Shown in pieces: positions 41,834-48,124 of a DNA stretch of 64,000 bases. How positions within the stretch are numbered: the first letter of the stretch is position 1; each line of letters starts with the position of its first letter. Below the pieces are notes generated by a model. It was not told the origin of the DNA. It ran no database searches and saw nothing but the letters and a program-made list of their open reading frames with translations. A program made the translations under genes and the position numbers. This DNA is from Candidatus Moraniibacteriota bacterium (GTDB lineage Bacteria > Patescibacteriota > Minisyncoccia > Moranbacterales > UBA1568), in the NCBI GenBank assembly GCA_052034935.1, contig JBPOIB010000001.1, positions 172,173 through 236,172 of the forward strand, given 5' to 3'.

Positions 41834-42142
41834 TTACTTGCTGACTTCGTAACCCTTCAGACCGCCGAGGGTCTTCAGGACTGTATCAAGATTGAGTCCG
41901 TAGACTCGGATCTCCTGCTTGCCGAGCTTGGTCAAGACGGTCAGGAGAATGCTGCTGCCATCGTTCGCCGCCTTCACCCGCTTGCCGGCGTAGCGAATCG
42001 GCTTGCCGCTCGCGGTGATGTAGCCGGGGGAGCAAGTGCCGCCCGCTTTGGTGACGGCGTTGACGATGGGTATGGCCGCTTCGGTCACGCTATCGTGGCG
42101 ACCGACGAGGCCGGATGTATCTAACTTCATGTGTTGCTCCAA
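41834..42142 (-). CDS. hypothetical protein
   Basis: 102-aa ORF; beta-rich Gly/Lys composition. Confidence 0.45.
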   Translation of the reverse strand: MEQHMKLDTSGLVGRHDSVTEAAIPIVNAVTKAGGTCSPGYITASGKPIRYAGKRVKAANDGSSILLTVLTKLGKQEIRVYGLNLDTVLKTLGGLKGYEVSK

Positions 42143-42248
42143 AAGGACGTGATTCGGCTGCAGCCGACCCTGGTTAGTGAAGATTCACCAACATAATATC
42201 ATAGCACTTTTTAATGATAAAATCAAGTGCCAGGTAGTATTTTAAGAC

Positions 42249-42284
42249 AAATGAAAAACGGCAGGTCGGATGACACTGCCGTCT
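42249..42284 (-). terminator. conserved hairpin terminator repeat, copy 1 (minus-strand reading: ACGGCAG-loop-CTGCCGTTTTTCATT)
   Basis: Plus strand AATGAAAAACGGCAG-gtcggatgaca-CTGCCGT; 35 nt beyond the stop of gene 42318..42737. Confidence 0.7.
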
Positions 42285-42317
42285 TGGATGCTAGCGTGGC
42301 AAACACGGATGAGTGGT

Positions 42318-42737
42318 TCACTCGGCAGCCTTCCATTCGAAGTGCAGCCAGTGGAAATGGCGCCCATTGCGCGGCACCAGGTTGGGGAGGGTGATGGCCT
42401 TCGATCGGCTCGGAGTACCTTCGACGATAAACCGATCGGCGCGTTCGGCGCCGCGGATGAGTGCTTCGCGGAGTTGGGCAGCCGAGAGTTCGTACTGGTG
42501 GTGCAAGACGATCTCGGCCATGATGCGAAGGATGACCGATTCGTATTCGCTGGCGATTAGCCAGTCGCCATTTTCAAATTCGAGTGCCGTGAGCCGGAGC
42601 GGCGGAAGCGCTGCTTCCGTCAAGAGGGCGATGGCGAAGCCCTCAGCGGCTTCTTCGATGGCGGAGCGGTAAATCGCGGCTTCGAGGCGGCGGATAGCTT
42701 CGTTTCGAGTGACCACGAGGAATCTCCTGGTTGGCAA
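42318..42737 (-). CDS. hypothetical protein
   Basis: 139-aa ORF with a TTG start; followed by its own repeat-terminator. Confidence 0.4.
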   Translation of the reverse strand: MPTRRFLVVTRNEAIRRLEAAIYRSAIEEAAEGFAIALLTEAALPPLRLTALEFENGDWLIASEYESVILRIMAEIVLHHQYELSAAQLREALIRGAERADRFIVEGTPSRSKAITLPNLVPRNGRHFHWLHFEWKAAE

Positions 42738-42778
42738 AGAATACTTTGAAACTACCGTATCCCTCTCTTGCCGTCAAA

Positions 42779-42815
42779 AATGAAAAACGGCAGAACTTTC
42801 GAGGTCCTGCCGTCT
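42779..42815 (-). terminator. conserved hairpin terminator repeat, copy 2
   Basis: AATGAAAAACGGCAGAAC-tttcgag-GTCCTGCCGT; 30 nt beyond the stop of gene 42845..43402. Confidence 0.7.
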
Positions 42816-42844
42816 TGTTGTGCCAGCGGTTGCCGGCGAGTGCT

Positions 42845-45604: not shown

Positions 45605-46129
45605 TCAATGCGATACCTGTCCGAGTTCGAAGCGGTAGACGTTGGCGCTCTCTTCATCACCCGGGAGAGCCGGCTGGATCAGCCGGAATCCGAGTTTCTC
45701 GAACAGCCGATTGGCTTCGACTCGCTTCGCTTTTGATCGAAGCTCGACGTGGGGGAGATGCCGACCCTTCGCCTCTTGCAGGGCCGCTTTGACGAGGATC
45801 TGTCCGATGCCGCGTCGCCGGCAATCGCCTTTCACGACGAGGTCATGGATTTCTCCGTGCCGCTCGACGCCGGGCGTAACGACCAGCCTCGCGATCCCGA
45901 GCATCTTGCCGTTGTCAGACAAGTCGACAGCAAGAAGGCAATCACTCCCTCTCGCCAGCGCCTGAATGGCCTCGAATGTGACCTTGTCCCTTGGATAGGG
46001 GGACAGTTCGCAGTAAAGATCAACGAGATGGGCTTTTCCGTCGCCAGTGAACCGCCACGGTTCAAACCCGGCGTCGTGCTCGACACTTACGTGATGGTGC
46101 ATGGACAACTCCAGTGTGTGAGGGGACAA
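45605..46129 (-). CDS. GNAT-family N-acetyltransferase
   Basis: Acetyl-CoA binding motif RRRGIGQILV...ANRLFEKLGF. Confidence 0.75.
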   Translation of the reverse strand: MSPHTLELSMHHHVSVEHDAGFEPWRFTGDGKAHLVDLYCELSPYPRDKVTFEAIQALARGSDCLLAVDLSDNGKMLGIARLVVTPGVERHGEIHDLVVKGDCRRRGIGQILVKAALQEAKGRHLPHVELRSKAKRVEANRLFEKLGFRLIQPALPGDEESANVYRFELGQVSH

Positions 46130-46283
46130 AAATAGCTTCCGTTGAAGCCGATAGTTCCATTCTTACTCTCGCCGGGCTCGTTGGTCAAGATTCTTATGAC
46201 ACGGAAGGGAAGCAGCCTCTCTTCCGAGAAAAGACCCGATCAACATGGTGTTCGGGCCTAAGAGATTGGCGTAGAGTGTCCTC

Positions 46284-47474
46284 TTACTGTGGATTTCTTT
46301 TCATCGTCCGCGAGAGTCCGACGAGTGCGAGACTCCCGAGAGCGAGAAAGACCGTACCGCTCGTGAGGAGTGCCACTTGGAGTGAAACCGCATCGTGGAT
46401 CCATCCCATGATCGGACCGAGAGCCGAAAAGAGCAGTCGTGCCAAGAGATTCTTCACCGAGAGTACGGTCGCCCGGATTTCTGAATCAATCAGGCCGTTG
46501 ATGTAGTCCGAGAGGATCGGACCGTGGACACCGCGTGTGATGTAGAAGAGTGCGATGATGGCGGCCGCCGCAAGTGACCCGGCCATCCCGAGGAAGAGAT
46601 ATCCGGTAGCAGGAAGCATGATGAGGGCGATGAGCGACCCGCGTTTTCCGAGTCGCTCTTCAATCGCGTGCGCGTGCCAAGAGCACGATGCTCCGACGAG
46701 CTGGAACGTGGCCCAGACGATGCCGAAGTAAGTGAGTGGTAGCCCGGCCTGCTGGAGGTAGGGCTGGGTGAACCAGACCATAGTGAGCGTCGATGCGCCC
46801 ACAGTAGCGGAGTAGAGGCAGAGCCACTTGATTTCGCTATGGTCATGAAGCGCGTACTTGGCGAGACGCAACATGTCACGGAAGGCGCTTCCCTTCGAGA
46901 TGAGCTGTTGCCGTTTCGGTTCGACGATTGAGAGAGCGAGCGGGATGAGTGCCAGCATGATGATGGCCTCACAGTAGAGCGGAAAGCGCAGACTGATGAG
47001 AGCTAGCGCCCCGCCGAGAATGCTCGCGATGCTTTCCGAGACCATGGCGAGGCTCGTGTTGCGCCCTTCGATGCGCTTGTGCTCGTCGGTCCGACCCATT
47101 TCTCGGAGCGAATCGTAGAGGAGGGCGGATTCGGTCCCAGATAGGAAACTCGCGCCGAACCCGAGGAGAATTTCTGCGAGGAGGAATCCCCAGAACCCAG
47201 TCCCGATCGCATAGACGCCGTGTCCAATGACGCCGAGTGTGCAGCCGATGATGATCGAGGTCCGGCGACCGAAGCGATCCGAGAGATAGCCGGTCGGAAC
47301 TTCGAAAGCGATCACCGCGATTGAGAAGAGCGATTGAAGGAGGAACACCTGCGAGAGAGTCAGCCCGTTCTCCTGGAAGAAGAGCACAATGACCGGGATG
47401 ATGAGCATGAAGCTCCGGATTGACCGGATGACAGCGATCTTCCAGAGATTATCGGAAACGCGTCCGTTTGGCAT
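46284..47474 (-). CDS. MFS-type transporter
   Basis: 12 TM helices; typical loop 2-3 motif (DRFGRR). Confidence 0.75.
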   Translation of the reverse strand: MPNGRVSDNLWKIAVIRSIRSFMLIIPVIVLFFQENGLTLSQVFLLQSLFSIAVIAFEVPTGYLSDRFGRRTSIIIGCTLGVIGHGVYAIGTGFWGFLLAEILLGFGASFLSGTESALLYDSLREMGRTDEHKRIEGRNTSLAMVSESIASILGGALALISLRFPLYCEAIIMLALIPLALSIVEPKRQQLISKGSAFRDMLRLAKYALHDHSEIKWLCLYSATVGASTLTMVWFTQPYLQQAGLPLTYFGIVWATFQLVGASCSWHAHAIEERLGKRGSLIALIMLPATGYLFLGMAGSLAAAAIIALFYITRGVHGPILSDYINGLIDSEIRATVLSVKNLLARLLFSALGPIMGWIHDAVSLQVALLTSGTVFLALGSLALVGLSRTMKRNPQ

Positions 47475-47776
47475 GGCAGCCCTTTCGAGTTGATTGAGTT
47501 GTGAAGGAACGTGCTAAAAAAAGCGCTCGGCTTCTGTTCAGCCGAGCGTATCCGAGGAGGGGATTGGACGTATCGTTTAGGCGGAGGGGTGAAAAAATTC
47601 CGATACGCGCTGCTGAACAGAAGAGGTGGCTCCGAGAATCGGAGACGCGAAGACAGAGCCGTCGCGCTGGGCGGTCATGTTCCACTTGTTCAGATGGCAC
47701 GTATGGTTTTTCATAACAGTGATTTATTGGTATCACGAGAATTCGTGTTTGTCAAGGAGGGTATTCAGTTCGGAAA

Positions 47777-47813
47777 AATGAAAAACGGCAGGTCGATTGC
47801 GACTCTGCCGTCG
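47777..47813 (-). terminator. conserved hairpin terminator repeat, copy 6
   Basis: AATGAAAAACGGCAGGTCG-attg-CGACTCTGCCGT; 27 nt beyond the stop of gene 47840..48004. Confidence 0.7.
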
Positions 47814-47839
47814 GTGTTTGGTGCAGCGCGGTTCCCGCT

Positions 47840-48004
47840 TTAGCGGCCGGGGAGTGCTACGCGCTCCTGGGCCAGCTTCTTGCCTTGAGCGATCTTCTTG
47901 CGCTTGCCAGCCTTCTTGCCGGCATCCTTCTTCGGATTGCCAGCCTTGTAGCAGGTGTAGCCCGGTGCGTGGCCGTGGCTTTTGCCGCGGTTGGTATTAG
48001 CCAT
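47840..48004 (-). CDS. small Lys-rich basic protein, hypothetical
   Basis: GGAGG RBS 6 nt before ATG 48004; 54 aa, MANTNRGKSHGHAPGYTCYKAGNPKKDAGKKAGKRKK. Confidence 0.5.
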   Translation of the reverse strand: MANTNRGKSHGHAPGYTCYKAGNPKKDAGKKAGKRKKIAQGKKLAQERVALPGR

Positions 48005-48124
48005 CAGTTGCCTCCATCGGCCGAAATGAACATGGGGATATGATGGCAAAAGGGTGGCTATCCGTCAACCGGAACGTTGTCTTGATGGATTTTACAAACA
48101 CGAGCATTGTTGCTAGTCTATGGC

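What the first reader, a model, noticed from the sequence alone, without database searches (positions are those of the whole stretch)
41834..48050. Run of single-gene minus-strand units, each ending in a near-identical hairpin terminator (ACGGCAG...CTGCCGTTTTTCATT)
Five full copies and one degenerate orphan copy of a 35-40-nt element (42249, 42779, 43458, 43974, 45528, 47777) sit 27-43 nt past the stop codons of successive minus-strand genes: two hypotheticals, a macro-like protein, a GNAT and a small basic protein. The stem (ACGGCAG/CTGCCGT), the tail (TTTTTCATT) and even the loops (two subfamilies, GTCGrtTGAC and AACTTTsgrGGTy) are conserved, which independent terminators would not be. Two further minus-strand accessory genes (51931..52239 and 61779..62150) have different stems but the same AATGAAAAA/TTTTTCATT tail, whereas core minus-strand genes (rpmA, recR-dnaB, cysS, corA) do not. 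The pattern suggests genes acquired or duplicated together with a portable terminator module, giving a cassette-like array that abuts the RT locus.
Basis: seen in the sequence. Interest (0 to 1): 0.65.

Follow-up and report, generated by a model that had tools for sequence, protein, structure and literature searches.

The report
Repeated terminator modules bounding shuffled genes
Six related copies of a roughly 65-base transcription-stop signal separate small, individually expressed genes in a strain-variable stretch of an uncultured Patescibacteria genome, and probably serve both as terminators and as the short repeats at which these genes are gained, lost and reshuffled.

Summary
Five full copies and one decayed copy of the hairpin ACGGCAG..CTGCCGT-TTTTTCATT lie within 6 kb. 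A covariance model finds no other copy in the 64-kb window or in about 10 kb beyond its ends. About a dozen other terminators in the window have unrelated stems.

The element is longer than reported, at 60-75 nt. It starts at or near the stop codon. It usually has a small upstream hairpin and always a CA-rich spacer, a strong terminator hairpin and a U5CAUU tail.

It is a lineage-specific family, not a generic signal. Related copies follow different genes in four related Moranbacteria-like genomes and are absent from the stretches sampled in two others.

A strain that is 96% identical in the flanks has different genes between the copies, and one junction looks like a hybrid of two window copies. 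A more distant relative has a 133-nt, 98%-identical direct repeat (end of one gene, terminator, promoter) flanking an inserted gene pair.

Best reading: these are homologous intrinsic terminators, duplicated when genes are inserted or shuffled by homologous recombination and then reused as recombination substrates. It is not an integron, since there is no integrase, no attC core sites, and each gene has its own promoter.

The array is cassette-like and variable, but genes do not keep one fixed terminator, and several are lineage-wide rather than recently acquired. The finding is modestly novel.

The parts
47771..47839 (-). Family copy c47777 (A-type loop), after the 54-aa basic-protein gene. 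Small hairpin GCGG/CCGC, spacer, hairpin ACGGCAGAGTCGCAATCGACCTGCCGT, tail TTTTTCATTTTT.
   Evidence: 65.6 bits. The orthologous copy in L121 is 93% identical.
45522..45604 (-). Family copy c45528 (B-type loop), after the GNAT gene. Small hairpin GCCGA/TCGGC, then a 10-12-bp terminator stem.
   Evidence: -29.5 kcal/mol, z -3.7; 63.9 bits
43971..44030 (-). Degenerate orphan copy c43974, with no gene upstream. It lies just 5' of the promoter of the 117-aa gene, in a divergent intergenic region.
   Evidence: 55.3 bits. The hairpin is weak. Not recognisable at the orthologous site in L256 or L122.
43452..43532 (-). Family copy c43458 (A-type, stem variant ACGGCAAG), after the 117-aa gene.
   Evidence: 61.9 bits. 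The hairpin plus tail is 35/35 identical to L121 e2, which follows a different gene.
42773..42844 (-). Family copy c42779 (B-type), after the macro-fold gene. Small hairpin GCCGGC/GCTGGC. The -35 box of the next promoter directly follows the tail.
   Evidence: -29.7 kcal/mol; 68.3 bits. 89% identical over 63 nt to L121 e1, which follows the 117-aa gene there.
42244..42317 (-). Family copy c42250 (A-type), after the 132-aa gene.
   Evidence: 52.5 bits
47840..48004 (-). 54-aa lysine-rich basic protein gene, with promoter-like site at 48040-48068.
   Evidence: A comparable small basic protein precedes the family repeat in L258.
46284..47714 (-). 45-aa leader ORF (47577-47714), hairpin plus U-tract (47524-47548) and MFS transporter (46284-47474). 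This is a two-ORF unit that ends in an unrelated terminator at 46233-46258.
45605..46102 (-). GNAT acetyltransferase gene.
   Evidence: Acetyltransf_1, 6.6e-17
45159..45496 (-). Unit downstream of c45528. Strong promoter-like site 45468-45496 (10 of 12 positions), 66-aa ORF 45208-45408 kept in frame in L121, terminator 45159-45179 with tail TTTTTCTTTCATTC.
43533..43971 (-). 117-aa gene with its own promoter and 5' UTR (-35 at 43966-43971, -10 at 43943-48). The family lies near the RT, within a few kb at most, in five genomes.
   Evidence: (promoter conserved with L256, z 40, and L122, z 16)
42845..43436 (-). Macrodomain-fold gene (170 aa from GTG 43357, or 185 aa from ATG 43402) with its own promoter (-35 43431-43436, -10 43409-43414). 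Absent from this site in L121.
   Evidence: promoter conserved with L257, z 23; macrodomain fold
42318..42777 (-). 132-aa gene of unknown function with a weak promoter-like site (-35 42772-42777). Homologues lie near the RT in L128 and next to the macro gene in L258.
41834..42226 (-). 98-aa ORFan gene with promoter-like site 42198-42226. It ends in an AT-rich bidirectional hairpin at 41719-41747, not in a family copy. Its promoter and UTR are homologous to those of an unrelated 82-aa gene in L131.
   Evidence: z 14
51874..51930 (-). Outlying terminator after the 102-aa gene: a different stem (GCCC..GGGC) with the same TTTTTCATT tail, preceded by ACATCCCAT.
61729..61778 (-). Outlying terminator after the 123-aa gene: a different stem (GCGTCGC..GCGACGC) with the same TTTTTCATT tail, preceded by ACATCCCAT.

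Best explanation
The elements are paralogous copies of one 3'-end module. It has a small hairpin just after the stop codon in most copies, then a CA-rich spacer, a GC-rich hairpin ACGGCAG..CTGCCGT, and the tail U5CAUU.

**What the module does.** On the mRNA it works as a Rho-independent terminator. Each small gene here is therefore its own transcription unit. The next sigma-70-type promoter starts 1-30 nt after the tail.

**Why the copies are alike.** This neighbourhood lies between dnaK/cutA and the conserved retron-like RT, in a Moranbacteria-like Patescibacterium. It is rebuilt repeatedly by homologous recombination. When a gene is inserted or moved, the junction segment carrying the terminator is duplicated, either by single-crossover (Campbell-type) integration or by unequal crossover. 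The resulting 35-130-nt direct repeats then serve as substrates for further deletion, replacement and reordering. Over time only the selected terminator core stays recognisable.

**Shown:**
- homology of the copies
- their position relative to stop codons and promoters
- predicted hairpin stability
- restriction to this region within 74 kb
- different gene content between copies in a 96%-identical strain
- family members after different genes in relatives
- a fresh 133-nt repeat flanking inserted genes in one relative

**Inferred:**
- termination activity
- the recombination mechanism
For: **Terminator anatomy**
- Stems have 7-13 bp. The hairpin cores have a free energy of -10.5 to -14.7 kcal/mol. 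The whole modules fold at -21 to -30 kcal/mol, with z-scores of -2.7 to -3.7.
- A run of five T follows the stem directly. The hairpins lie 28-43 nt after stop codons on the coding strand.
- Promoter-like sites follow each copy (and the sequence).

**Common descent of the copies**
- The copies share loops, a 5' flank (..GGCAmAmAmGA) and the tail.
- The model finds six copies in the window and none elsewhere.

**Variability between strains**
- L121 is 95.9% identical to the window over 9.2 kb. Homology breaks 5 nt after the stop of the 117-aa gene.
- There L121 has, in order: a copy like c42779, a promoter, an unrelated 137-aa gene, and a copy with the c43458 hairpin. The window's macro, 132-aa and 98-aa genes are missing.
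- L121 e1 matches c42779 from the stop codon to the tail. Its 3' side weakly resembles the sequence that follows c42250 (11 of 16 nt). That is compatible with a crossover in the shared 16-nt core, but it does not prove one.

**Family in relatives**

| Locus | Copies | After which genes |
|---|---|---|
| L256 | 3 | two 117-family paralogues and a 107-aa ORFan |
| L131 | 1 | an 82-aa ORFan |
| L257 | 1 | the macro homologue |
| L258 | 3 | small basic protein, 132-family gene, macro homologue |

**Duplication signatures**
- L258 has a 133-nt repeat, 97.7% identical. It consists of the 3' end of one ORF, the terminator and the next promoter. It flanks a GNAT gene plus a 132-family gene, and the 132-family ORF is fused to the duplicated ORF end.
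- L127 has three copies of the cutA 5' end, two of them directly after an inserted gene (the third is cutA itself).

**Within-genome similarity.** The tail is shared among copies within a genome but differs between genomes (TTTTTCATTT, CGAACTTTTTTAT, TTTCAAATTTTT). This fits local duplication or gene conversion.

**No mobility genes.** No recombinase, transposase or phage gene turned up among the large ORFs of the window.
Against: - Only about 74 kb of a genome whose contig is at least 400 kb could be examined. Local restriction is therefore not proven genome-wide.
- One breakpoint lies at the boundary between the 117-aa stop codon and the start of the element. It is not inside the shared core, so a simple repeat-to-repeat crossover does not explain it.
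- The right half of the proposed hybrid junction is only about 70% like the window sequence.
- The outer stem and the A-type loop (AGTCACAACCGAC) are nearly invariant across genomes whose proteins are only 60-80% identical. That is more conservation than a plain terminator needs. It suggests a sequence-specific role or repeated exchange between lineages.
- No transcript data exist.
Confidence: 0.6

Rival explanations
1. The modules are recombination sites of a site-specific cassette system, analogous to integron attC sites. Single genes would be excised as circles and reinserted at the boundary of an element by a dedicated recombinase encoded elsewhere.
For: - The array consists of single-gene units in one orientation, separated by about 65-nt structured repeats of attC-like size.
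- Gene content between repeats differs between close strains.
- One variant boundary sits exactly at the junction between a stop codon and the start of an element. In four copies, homology starts right at the stop codon (TGA-nCACTC..).
- GNAT and ORFan genes are typical cassette cargo.
Against: - No tyrosine or serine recombinase was found among the large ORFs of the window, or in the related loci apart from one distant resolvase in L127.
- There are no RYYYAAC or GTTRRRY core sites at the element ends (read).
- The hairpin is a plain terminator followed by a U-tract.
- Every unit has its own promoter, and gene-specific promoters are conserved with their genes.
- The fresh duplications in L258 and L127 are 107-133 nt of ordinary local sequence, as expected for homologous rather than site-specific events.
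Confidence: 0.08
2. The element is a small non-autonomous mobile repeat (REP-, MITE- or Correia-like). It inserts downstream of genes and happens to supply a terminator.
For: - An orphan degenerate copy lies upstream of the 117-aa promoter with no gene before it. It is not recognisable at the orthologous site in L256 or L122.
- Family members occur in several genomes after unrelated genes.
- Stem and loop are strongly conserved across genomes.
Against: - There are no terminal inverted repeats or target-site duplications.
- All copies have the same orientation relative to the upstream gene and start at or near its stop codon.
- Copies are clustered in one neighbourhood instead of dispersed.
- No RAYT- or IS200-type gene was found in the window.
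- There are no inverted pairs like those in BIMEs.
Confidence: 0.12
3. The two-hairpin module is a conserved 3'-UTR signal read by a lineage-specific RNA-binding factor. It would control stability, processing or translation, or be recognised by the neighbouring RT. On this reading the sequence is conserved for binding, and these genes form a post-transcriptional regulon.
For: - The two-hairpin layout recurs with different small-hairpin sequences: GCCAGC/GCTGGC, GCCGA/TCGGC, CCGGGG/CTCCGG, CGCTG/CAGCG. About half of 14 copies beat shuffles.
- The spacer is CA-rich and the tail conserved, even in copies whose main stem has been replaced (L256 5662-5718, L258 8560-8629, window 51874).
- The outer stem and the A-type loop are nearly invariant across distant genomes.
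Against: - The small hairpin is weak or absent in three window copies.
- The module matches no known RNA family.
- No candidate binding protein is linked to it.
- The RT and its upstream RNA occur without the modules in L127 and L122.
- Recent duplication and gene conversion could also explain the conservation.
Confidence: 0.12
4. These are simply the organism's ordinary terminators. They look alike through chance or convergence, and the clustering is a sampling effect.
For: - The same 22-nt stem-plus-tail pattern occurs singly in at least 119 unrelated genomes.
- The 19-nt 3' core is common in metagenomes.
- Two other terminators in the window share the tail.
Against: - About a dozen other terminators in the same window have unrelated stems.
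- Loops and 20-30 nt of 5' flank are shared among the copies.
- Six model hits lie within 6 kb and none in the other roughly 68 kb. None of 100 shuffles gave a single match.
Confidence: 0.05

Closest known systems
Rho-independent (intrinsic) terminators
   Same: A GC-rich hairpin directly followed by a U-tract, a few tens of nt after the stop codon on the coding strand. The CA/A-rich stretch upstream can partly pair with the U-tract.
   Different: Ordinary terminators within a genome are not homologous to each other. Here six share loops, flanks and tail, and most have an extra small hairpin upstream.
Neisseria 'minimal mobile elements' and DUS inverted-repeat terminators (from my own knowledge of that literature; not checked here)
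   Same: Different whole-gene cassettes occupy the same site in different strains, without mobility genes, and are thought to move by transformation plus homologous recombination. In that system too, short repeated sequences double as terminators.
   Different: In Neisseria the homology is supplied by conserved flanking genes, and the DUS is over-represented genome-wide. Here the homology is the terminator module itself, and its 7-mer is not enriched outside the array.
Chromosomal integron cassette arrays (for example Vibrio VCR/attC arrays)
   Same: Tandem single-gene units in one orientation, separated by structured repeats that are alike within one array. Cargo consists of ORFans and acetyltransferases, and strain-to-strain variability is high.
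   Different: No integrase, no attI site and no R/L core sites. The repeat is a terminator with a U-tract, and the units carry their own promoters. The fresh duplications in relatives look like products of homologous recombination.
REP/BIME, ERIC, BOX, RUP and Correia-type small intergenic repeats
   Same: Short palindromic extragenic repeats downstream of genes that can terminate transcription or stabilise mRNA.
   Different: Those families are dispersed in tens to hundreds of copies, often in both orientations, and REPs depend on a RAYT transposase. This family is local, unidirectional and tied to stop codons.
Phage 'morons' (single genes with their own promoter and terminator)
   Same: Each unit consists of a promoter, one gene and a terminator.
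   Different: The context is not a prophage. There are no PHROG matches and the flanking genes are core genes. Several of the genes are lineage-wide.

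Membership tests
Intrinsic terminator | Stable GC-rich stem-loop immediately followed by a U-tract | tested here: met
   Hairpin cores have a free energy of -10.5 to -14.7 kcal/mol. They are followed by TTTTT. Whole modules have z-scores of -2.7 to -3.7.
Intrinsic terminator | Located downstream of a coding region on the transcribed strand | tested here: met
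   28-43 nt after five stop codons.
Intrinsic terminator | Transcripts end at the U-tract | not testable with these tools
   No RNA data. Needs Term-seq or in vitro transcription.
Integron / attC cassette array | Integron integrase (IntI tyrosine recombinase) next to the array | tested here: not met
   No recombinase domain in any large ORF of the window. The rest of the genome was not seen.
Integron / attC cassette array | attC with inverse core RYYYAAC and core GTTRRRY at its ends | tested here: not met
   Neither motif is present at the element boundaries (sequences).
Integron / attC cassette array | Cassettes mostly promoterless, expressed from Pc | tested here: not met
   A sigma-70-like promoter follows each copy. 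Gene-specific promoters are conserved.
REP/BIME (RAYT-dependent) | Many dispersed copies, often as inverted pairs | tested here: not met
   Six copies within 6 kb, all in one orientation, and none in the other roughly 68 kb. Genome-wide status is unknown.
REP/BIME (RAYT-dependent) | Associated RAYT (IS200/IS605-like) transposase | tested here: inconclusive
   None in the window (Pfam calls).
MITE | Terminal inverted repeats and target-site duplication | tested here: not met
   No terminal inverted repeats or target-site duplications in the aligned copies with flanks.
DNA uptake sequence | Genome-wide over-representation of the core motif | tested here: not met
   Outside the copies, ACGGCAG or CTGCCGT occurs only 7 times in 64 kb.
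Repeat- or flank-mediated cassette exchange (minimal-mobile-element type) | Different genes at the same site in close strains, bounded by conserved sequence, with no mobility genes | tested here: met
   Window against L121. No recombinase was found.
Repeat- or flank-mediated cassette exchange (minimal-mobile-element type) | Exchange occurs by homologous recombination | tested here: inconclusive
   A hybrid-looking junction and 107-133-nt direct repeats around inserted genes in relatives fit. One breakpoint at the stop codon does not.
Phage moron | Unit lies in a phage or prophage genome | tested here: not met
   No PHROG hits. One unrelated hit in viral contigs. Core genes flank the array.

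The most novel reading that the evidence does not exclude
The two-hairpin modules could be the working sites of an integrase-less cassette system peculiar to Patescibacteria. A host factor, or the adjacent conserved retron-like RT with its roughly 340-nt RNA, would recognise the folded module. It would use it to excise, copy or reinsert single expressed genes. The array would then be a functional counterpart of an integron, built on terminators.
Probability: 0.07. Interest if true: 0.8.

Novelty: new variant of a known kind. Interest (0 to 1): 0.4.

Why it matters
Patescibacteria have tiny genomes and few recognisable mobile elements, so how they gain and reshuffle genes is poorly understood.

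This locus suggests a simple route. Terminator-bearing junctions are copied at each insertion. They then act both as insulators between monocistronic genes and as short homology patches for the next rearrangement.

If the pattern holds genome-wide and across the lineage, it would explain how a variable gene neighbourhood is maintained without transposases or integrases. The covariance model would also give a practical marker for finding such neighbourhoods in metagenome-assembled genomes.

The unusually strong conservation of the stem and loop also leaves room for a sequence-specific function that is worth testing.

Tried and rejected
- **Genome scan.** All were single, unrelated terminators from many phyla.
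- **Metagenome and viral scans.** There was one unrelated viral contig.
- **Walking along the source contig.** Exact-protein look-ups gave only about 10 kb beyond the window.
- **Known RNA families.** Rfam found only three tRNAs at gathering thresholds and nothing credible at relaxed thresholds.
- **Diversity-generating retroelement link.** No template/variable repeat pair lies near the RT. The RT scores best as retron-type.
- **Antisense coding.** On the + strand every copy starts ATGAAAAACGGCAG (MKNGR..). There is no ribosome-binding site, and only the element-encoded residues are shared, so this was rejected.
- **Operator for a DNA-binding protein.** The arms are spaced variably (11-14 nt), which argues against a double-stranded DNA operator.
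- **DNA uptake sequence.** Rejected because the motif is not enriched.
- **Paralogy of the array genes.** There is no similarity among the window's array proteins.
- **Phage or defence annotation.** No PHROG or PADLOC hits for the array genes. The only PADLOC hit in that scan was to the neighbouring RT.
- **Literature.** Two full-text searches found nothing describing such repeats in Patescibacteria.

Full report
**1. The observation**

The pattern ACGGCAG-N5-20-CTGCCGT occurs four times in the window (42258, 42787, 45536, 47785). It occurs in none of 100 shuffles. A fifth copy at 43458 has the stem variant ACGGCAAG..CCTGCCGT, and a sixth at 43974 is decayed.

AATGAAAAA, the reverse complement of the tail, occurs nine times, always on the + strand, against 0.7 expected. 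A covariance model built from nine copies finds exactly these six sites in the window at 52-68 bits. With filters off, nothing else scores above 12 bits.

Two Logan contigs of the same strain extend the window by 3.2 kb and 6.7 kb and hold no copy.

My own hairpin-plus-T-run scan found about a dozen other convincing terminators in intergenic positions, for example at 1182-1205, 1951-1965, 2558-2587, 7755-7795, 12757-12772, 27866-27884, 34726-34751, 41719-41747, 47524-47548, 50412-50432, 51804-51833, 55147-55176 and 58591-58608. All have unrelated stems. So within the 74 kb available, the element is not the organism's general terminator.

**2. Anatomy**

The text below uses minus-strand, or terminator, orientation.

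- The conserved unit is longer than the 35-40 nt reported. Alignments with flanks and a table of all copies from stop codon to tail show the layout.
- The order is: stop codon, then 2-20 nt, then a small hairpin, then a CA-rich spacer (ACAAGA, ACACGA, AACACCGA). Next come the main hairpin and TTTTTCATT(T).
- The small hairpin differs between copies: GCCGGC/GCTGGC, GCCGA/TCGGC, GCGG/CCGC.
- The main hairpin has ACGGCAG/CTGCCGT as its outer stem, with inner pairs and a loop in two subfamilies.
- In four copies homology starts right at the stop codon (TGA-nCACTC..).
- The small hairpin beats shuffles in about half of 14 family members. It is weak or absent in three window copies.
- The modules fold at -21 to -30 kcal/mol, with z-scores of -2.7 to -3.7.
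- A sigma-70-like promoter for the next gene follows 1-30 nt after each tail (sequences).

The interval is not a pure run. A + strand block (55-aa protein, DUF3467, 181-aa membrane protein; 44067-45150) interrupts it. The 98-aa gene, the 66-aa gene, the MFS transporter and its 45-aa leader end in other hairpins.

**3. Genes and organism**

The window is ordinary chromosome. It carries alaS, dnaB, recR, cysS, corA, hrcA, grpE, dnaK, pgk, eno, pyrG, queA, ftsA, prfB and others.

RT and macro homologues carry names such as Candidatus Moranbacteria, Moraniibacteriota and Patescibacteria.

| Array genes | What they are |
|---|---|
| 117 aa, 132 aa, 98 aa, 66 aa, 54 aa (basic) | five proteins without family matches |
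| GNAT | acetyltransferase (Pfam) |
| MFS transporter with leader | Pfam MFS, preceded by a short upstream ORF |
| 170-aa protein | macrodomain fold (pLDDT 85; TARG1, Poa1p and DarG matches, E 3e-6) |

No recombinase, transposase or phage gene was found among the large ORFs of the window.

**4. Comparison with a close strain**

L121 (Logan SRR22388173) is 95.9% identical to the window over 9.2 kb, from 53452 to 44240, and again through the 117-aa gene. The copies at 47777, 45528 and 43974 are kept at orthologous positions.

Homology stops 5 nt after the stop codon of the 117-aa gene. L121 then has, in order:

- copy e1, which is 89% identical to c42779 over 63 nt starting at the stop codon
- a promoter (TTGACA-N17-TATACT)
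- an unrelated 137-aa gene
- copy e2, whose hairpin and tail are 35/35 identical to c43458
- AT-rich foreign-looking DNA, and then cutA

The macro, 132-aa and 98-aa genes of the window are absent there. The sequence after e1's tail (GTTTTAAAGC) weakly resembles the one after c42250 (GTCTTAAAAT; 11 of 16 nt), and it differs from what follows c42779. So e1 looks like a c42779/c42250 hybrid, as a crossover in the shared core CTGCCGTTTTTCATTT would produce.

The other boundary, from the stop codon to the start of the element, is not explained by such a crossover.

**5. The family in related genomes**

| Locus | Relatedness | Family members |
|---|---|---|
| L256 | RT 83% identical | Full copy after a 117-family gene (51.9 bits). 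A second copy, cut by the contig end, after a 107-aa ORFan. After another 117-family paralogue, a third copy with flank and tail kept but the stem replaced. |
| L131/L132 | RT 78% | One copy (39.8 bits) after an 82-aa ORFan. That gene's promoter and 5' UTR are homologous to those of the window's unrelated 98-aa gene. |
| L257 | Candidatus Moraniibacteriota; macro 66% | One copy directly after the macro gene (32.6 bits) |
| L258 | macro 60% | Three members |
| L127-L130 | RT 86% | None in the stretches sampled |
| L122 | RT 82% | None in the stretch sampled |

The tail is the same among copies within a genome but differs between genomes.

The macro and 117-aa genes keep their own promoters across genomes (z 23, 40 and 16). 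The same gene families recur in this neighbourhood in different orders: macro, 132-family, 117-family, GNAT, small basic protein, DUF3467, DM13 and RT.

**6. Signatures of how copies arise**

- In L258 a 133-nt direct repeat, 97.7% identical, consists of the last 33 nt of the small basic-protein ORF, the terminator and the next promoter. It flanks GNAT plus a 132-family gene. The 132-family ORF ends in the duplicated basic-protein codons.
- In L127 the first 107-111 nt of cutA occur three times; two copies each sit directly after an inserted gene, and the third is cutA itself.
- Both patterns are what single-crossover integration or unequal crossover leaves behind.

**7. Interpretation**

- The modules are homologous intrinsic terminators. 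They insulate monocistronic genes in a recombination-prone neighbourhood.
- They multiply because junction segments are duplicated when genes are inserted or moved. The repeats then promote further change.
- Integron membership fails on three counts: no integrase, no core sites, and cassettes that carry promoters.
- REP, MITE and DNA-uptake readings fail on distribution, orientation and motif enrichment.
- One point remains unexplained. The outer stem and the A-type loop are nearly invariant across genomes with only 60-80% protein identity, and the small upstream hairpin recurs. This leaves room for a sequence-specific RNA or DNA function.

**8. Limits**

- Only two strains and five related genomes were available. 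No transcript data exist.
- The two large collection scans were swamped by unrelated terminators, so the genome-wide distribution is unknown.

Noticed in passing
window 48123-48502 (+), upstream of RT 48503-49603: A noncoding stretch of about 340 nt is far more conserved than coding DNA across six genomes. It has its own promoter, an invariant long-range closing helix (CCAAGGGGGC...GCCCCCTTGG) and internal hairpins with a few compensatory changes. It looks like a retron-type msr/msd RNA for an RT family found widely in Patescibacteria (152 homologue clusters). It is not in Rfam.
   Followed up: partly
window 49703-50389 (+): A 228-aa multi-pass membrane protein directly follows the RT and is 70% identical in L256. 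It is absent after the RT in L122, L127 and L131, so it is a possible but non-universal effector partner.
   Followed up: partly
window 43533-43886 (-); L122 10001-10345; L256 540-920 and 5750-6121; L132 11241-11579: The 117-aa protein family (motif ..EARFYP..GGRLH..) lies near the RT, within a few kb at most, in five genomes, with two paralogues flanking it in L256. Its function is unknown and it may be linked to the RT.
   Followed up: partly
window 44235-44297 (+): This is the 3' remnant (NIVLVKESADKLRDFLKP*) of a 163-aa HIT-like gene that is intact in L121 (9159-9650). The window strain has deleted most of the gene.
   Followed up: yes
L127 2935-3045, 3890-4000, 6831-6871: There are three copies of the 5' end of cutA (88-90% identical, 41-111 nt). 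Two sit directly after an inserted gene (methyltransferase, epimerase) and the third is cutA itself. This is a footprint of repeated duplicative insertion in front of cutA.
   Followed up: partly
L258 6762-6894 and 7823-7955: A 133-nt direct repeat, 97.7% identical, consists of the end of a small basic-protein ORF, the terminator and a promoter. It flanks GNAT and a 132-family gene whose C-terminus is fused to the duplicated ORF end.
   Followed up: yes
window 40244-41396 (+); L121 11085-11609 and 12019-12681: AT-rich genes (GC3 0.31-0.36, against 0.55-0.8 elsewhere) flank cutA and are entirely different in the two 96%-identical strains. This is a second, independent site of recent gene replacement.
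   Followed up: partly
window 47524-47714 (-): A 45-aa ORF, conserved in L121, is followed by a strong hairpin plus U-tract just upstream of the MFS transporter. This could be a leader-peptide attenuator.
   Followed up: no
window 51874-51930 and 61729-61778 (-): Two terminators with unrelated stems share both the TTTTTCATT tail and an upstream ACATCCCAT motif. They may be a second small family or very diverged members of the first.
   Followed up: partly
window 42131-42249 (-) and L131 8191-8330 (-): Homologous promoter and 5'-UTR segments (AAAAAGTGCTATrATAT..GTGAmT.TTCCACTrACC) drive unrelated ORFs: 98 aa in the window and 82 aa in L131. L121's 137-aa gene shows only a few matching motifs by eye and was not significant in the promoter comparison. 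It appears that ORFs are swapped within a kept expression scaffold.
   Followed up: partly
whole window: Cumulative GC skew rises across all 64 kb, so the + strand is probably the leading strand. Every family copy and every AATGAAAAA lies so that the terminator serves lagging-strand genes.
   Followed up: no
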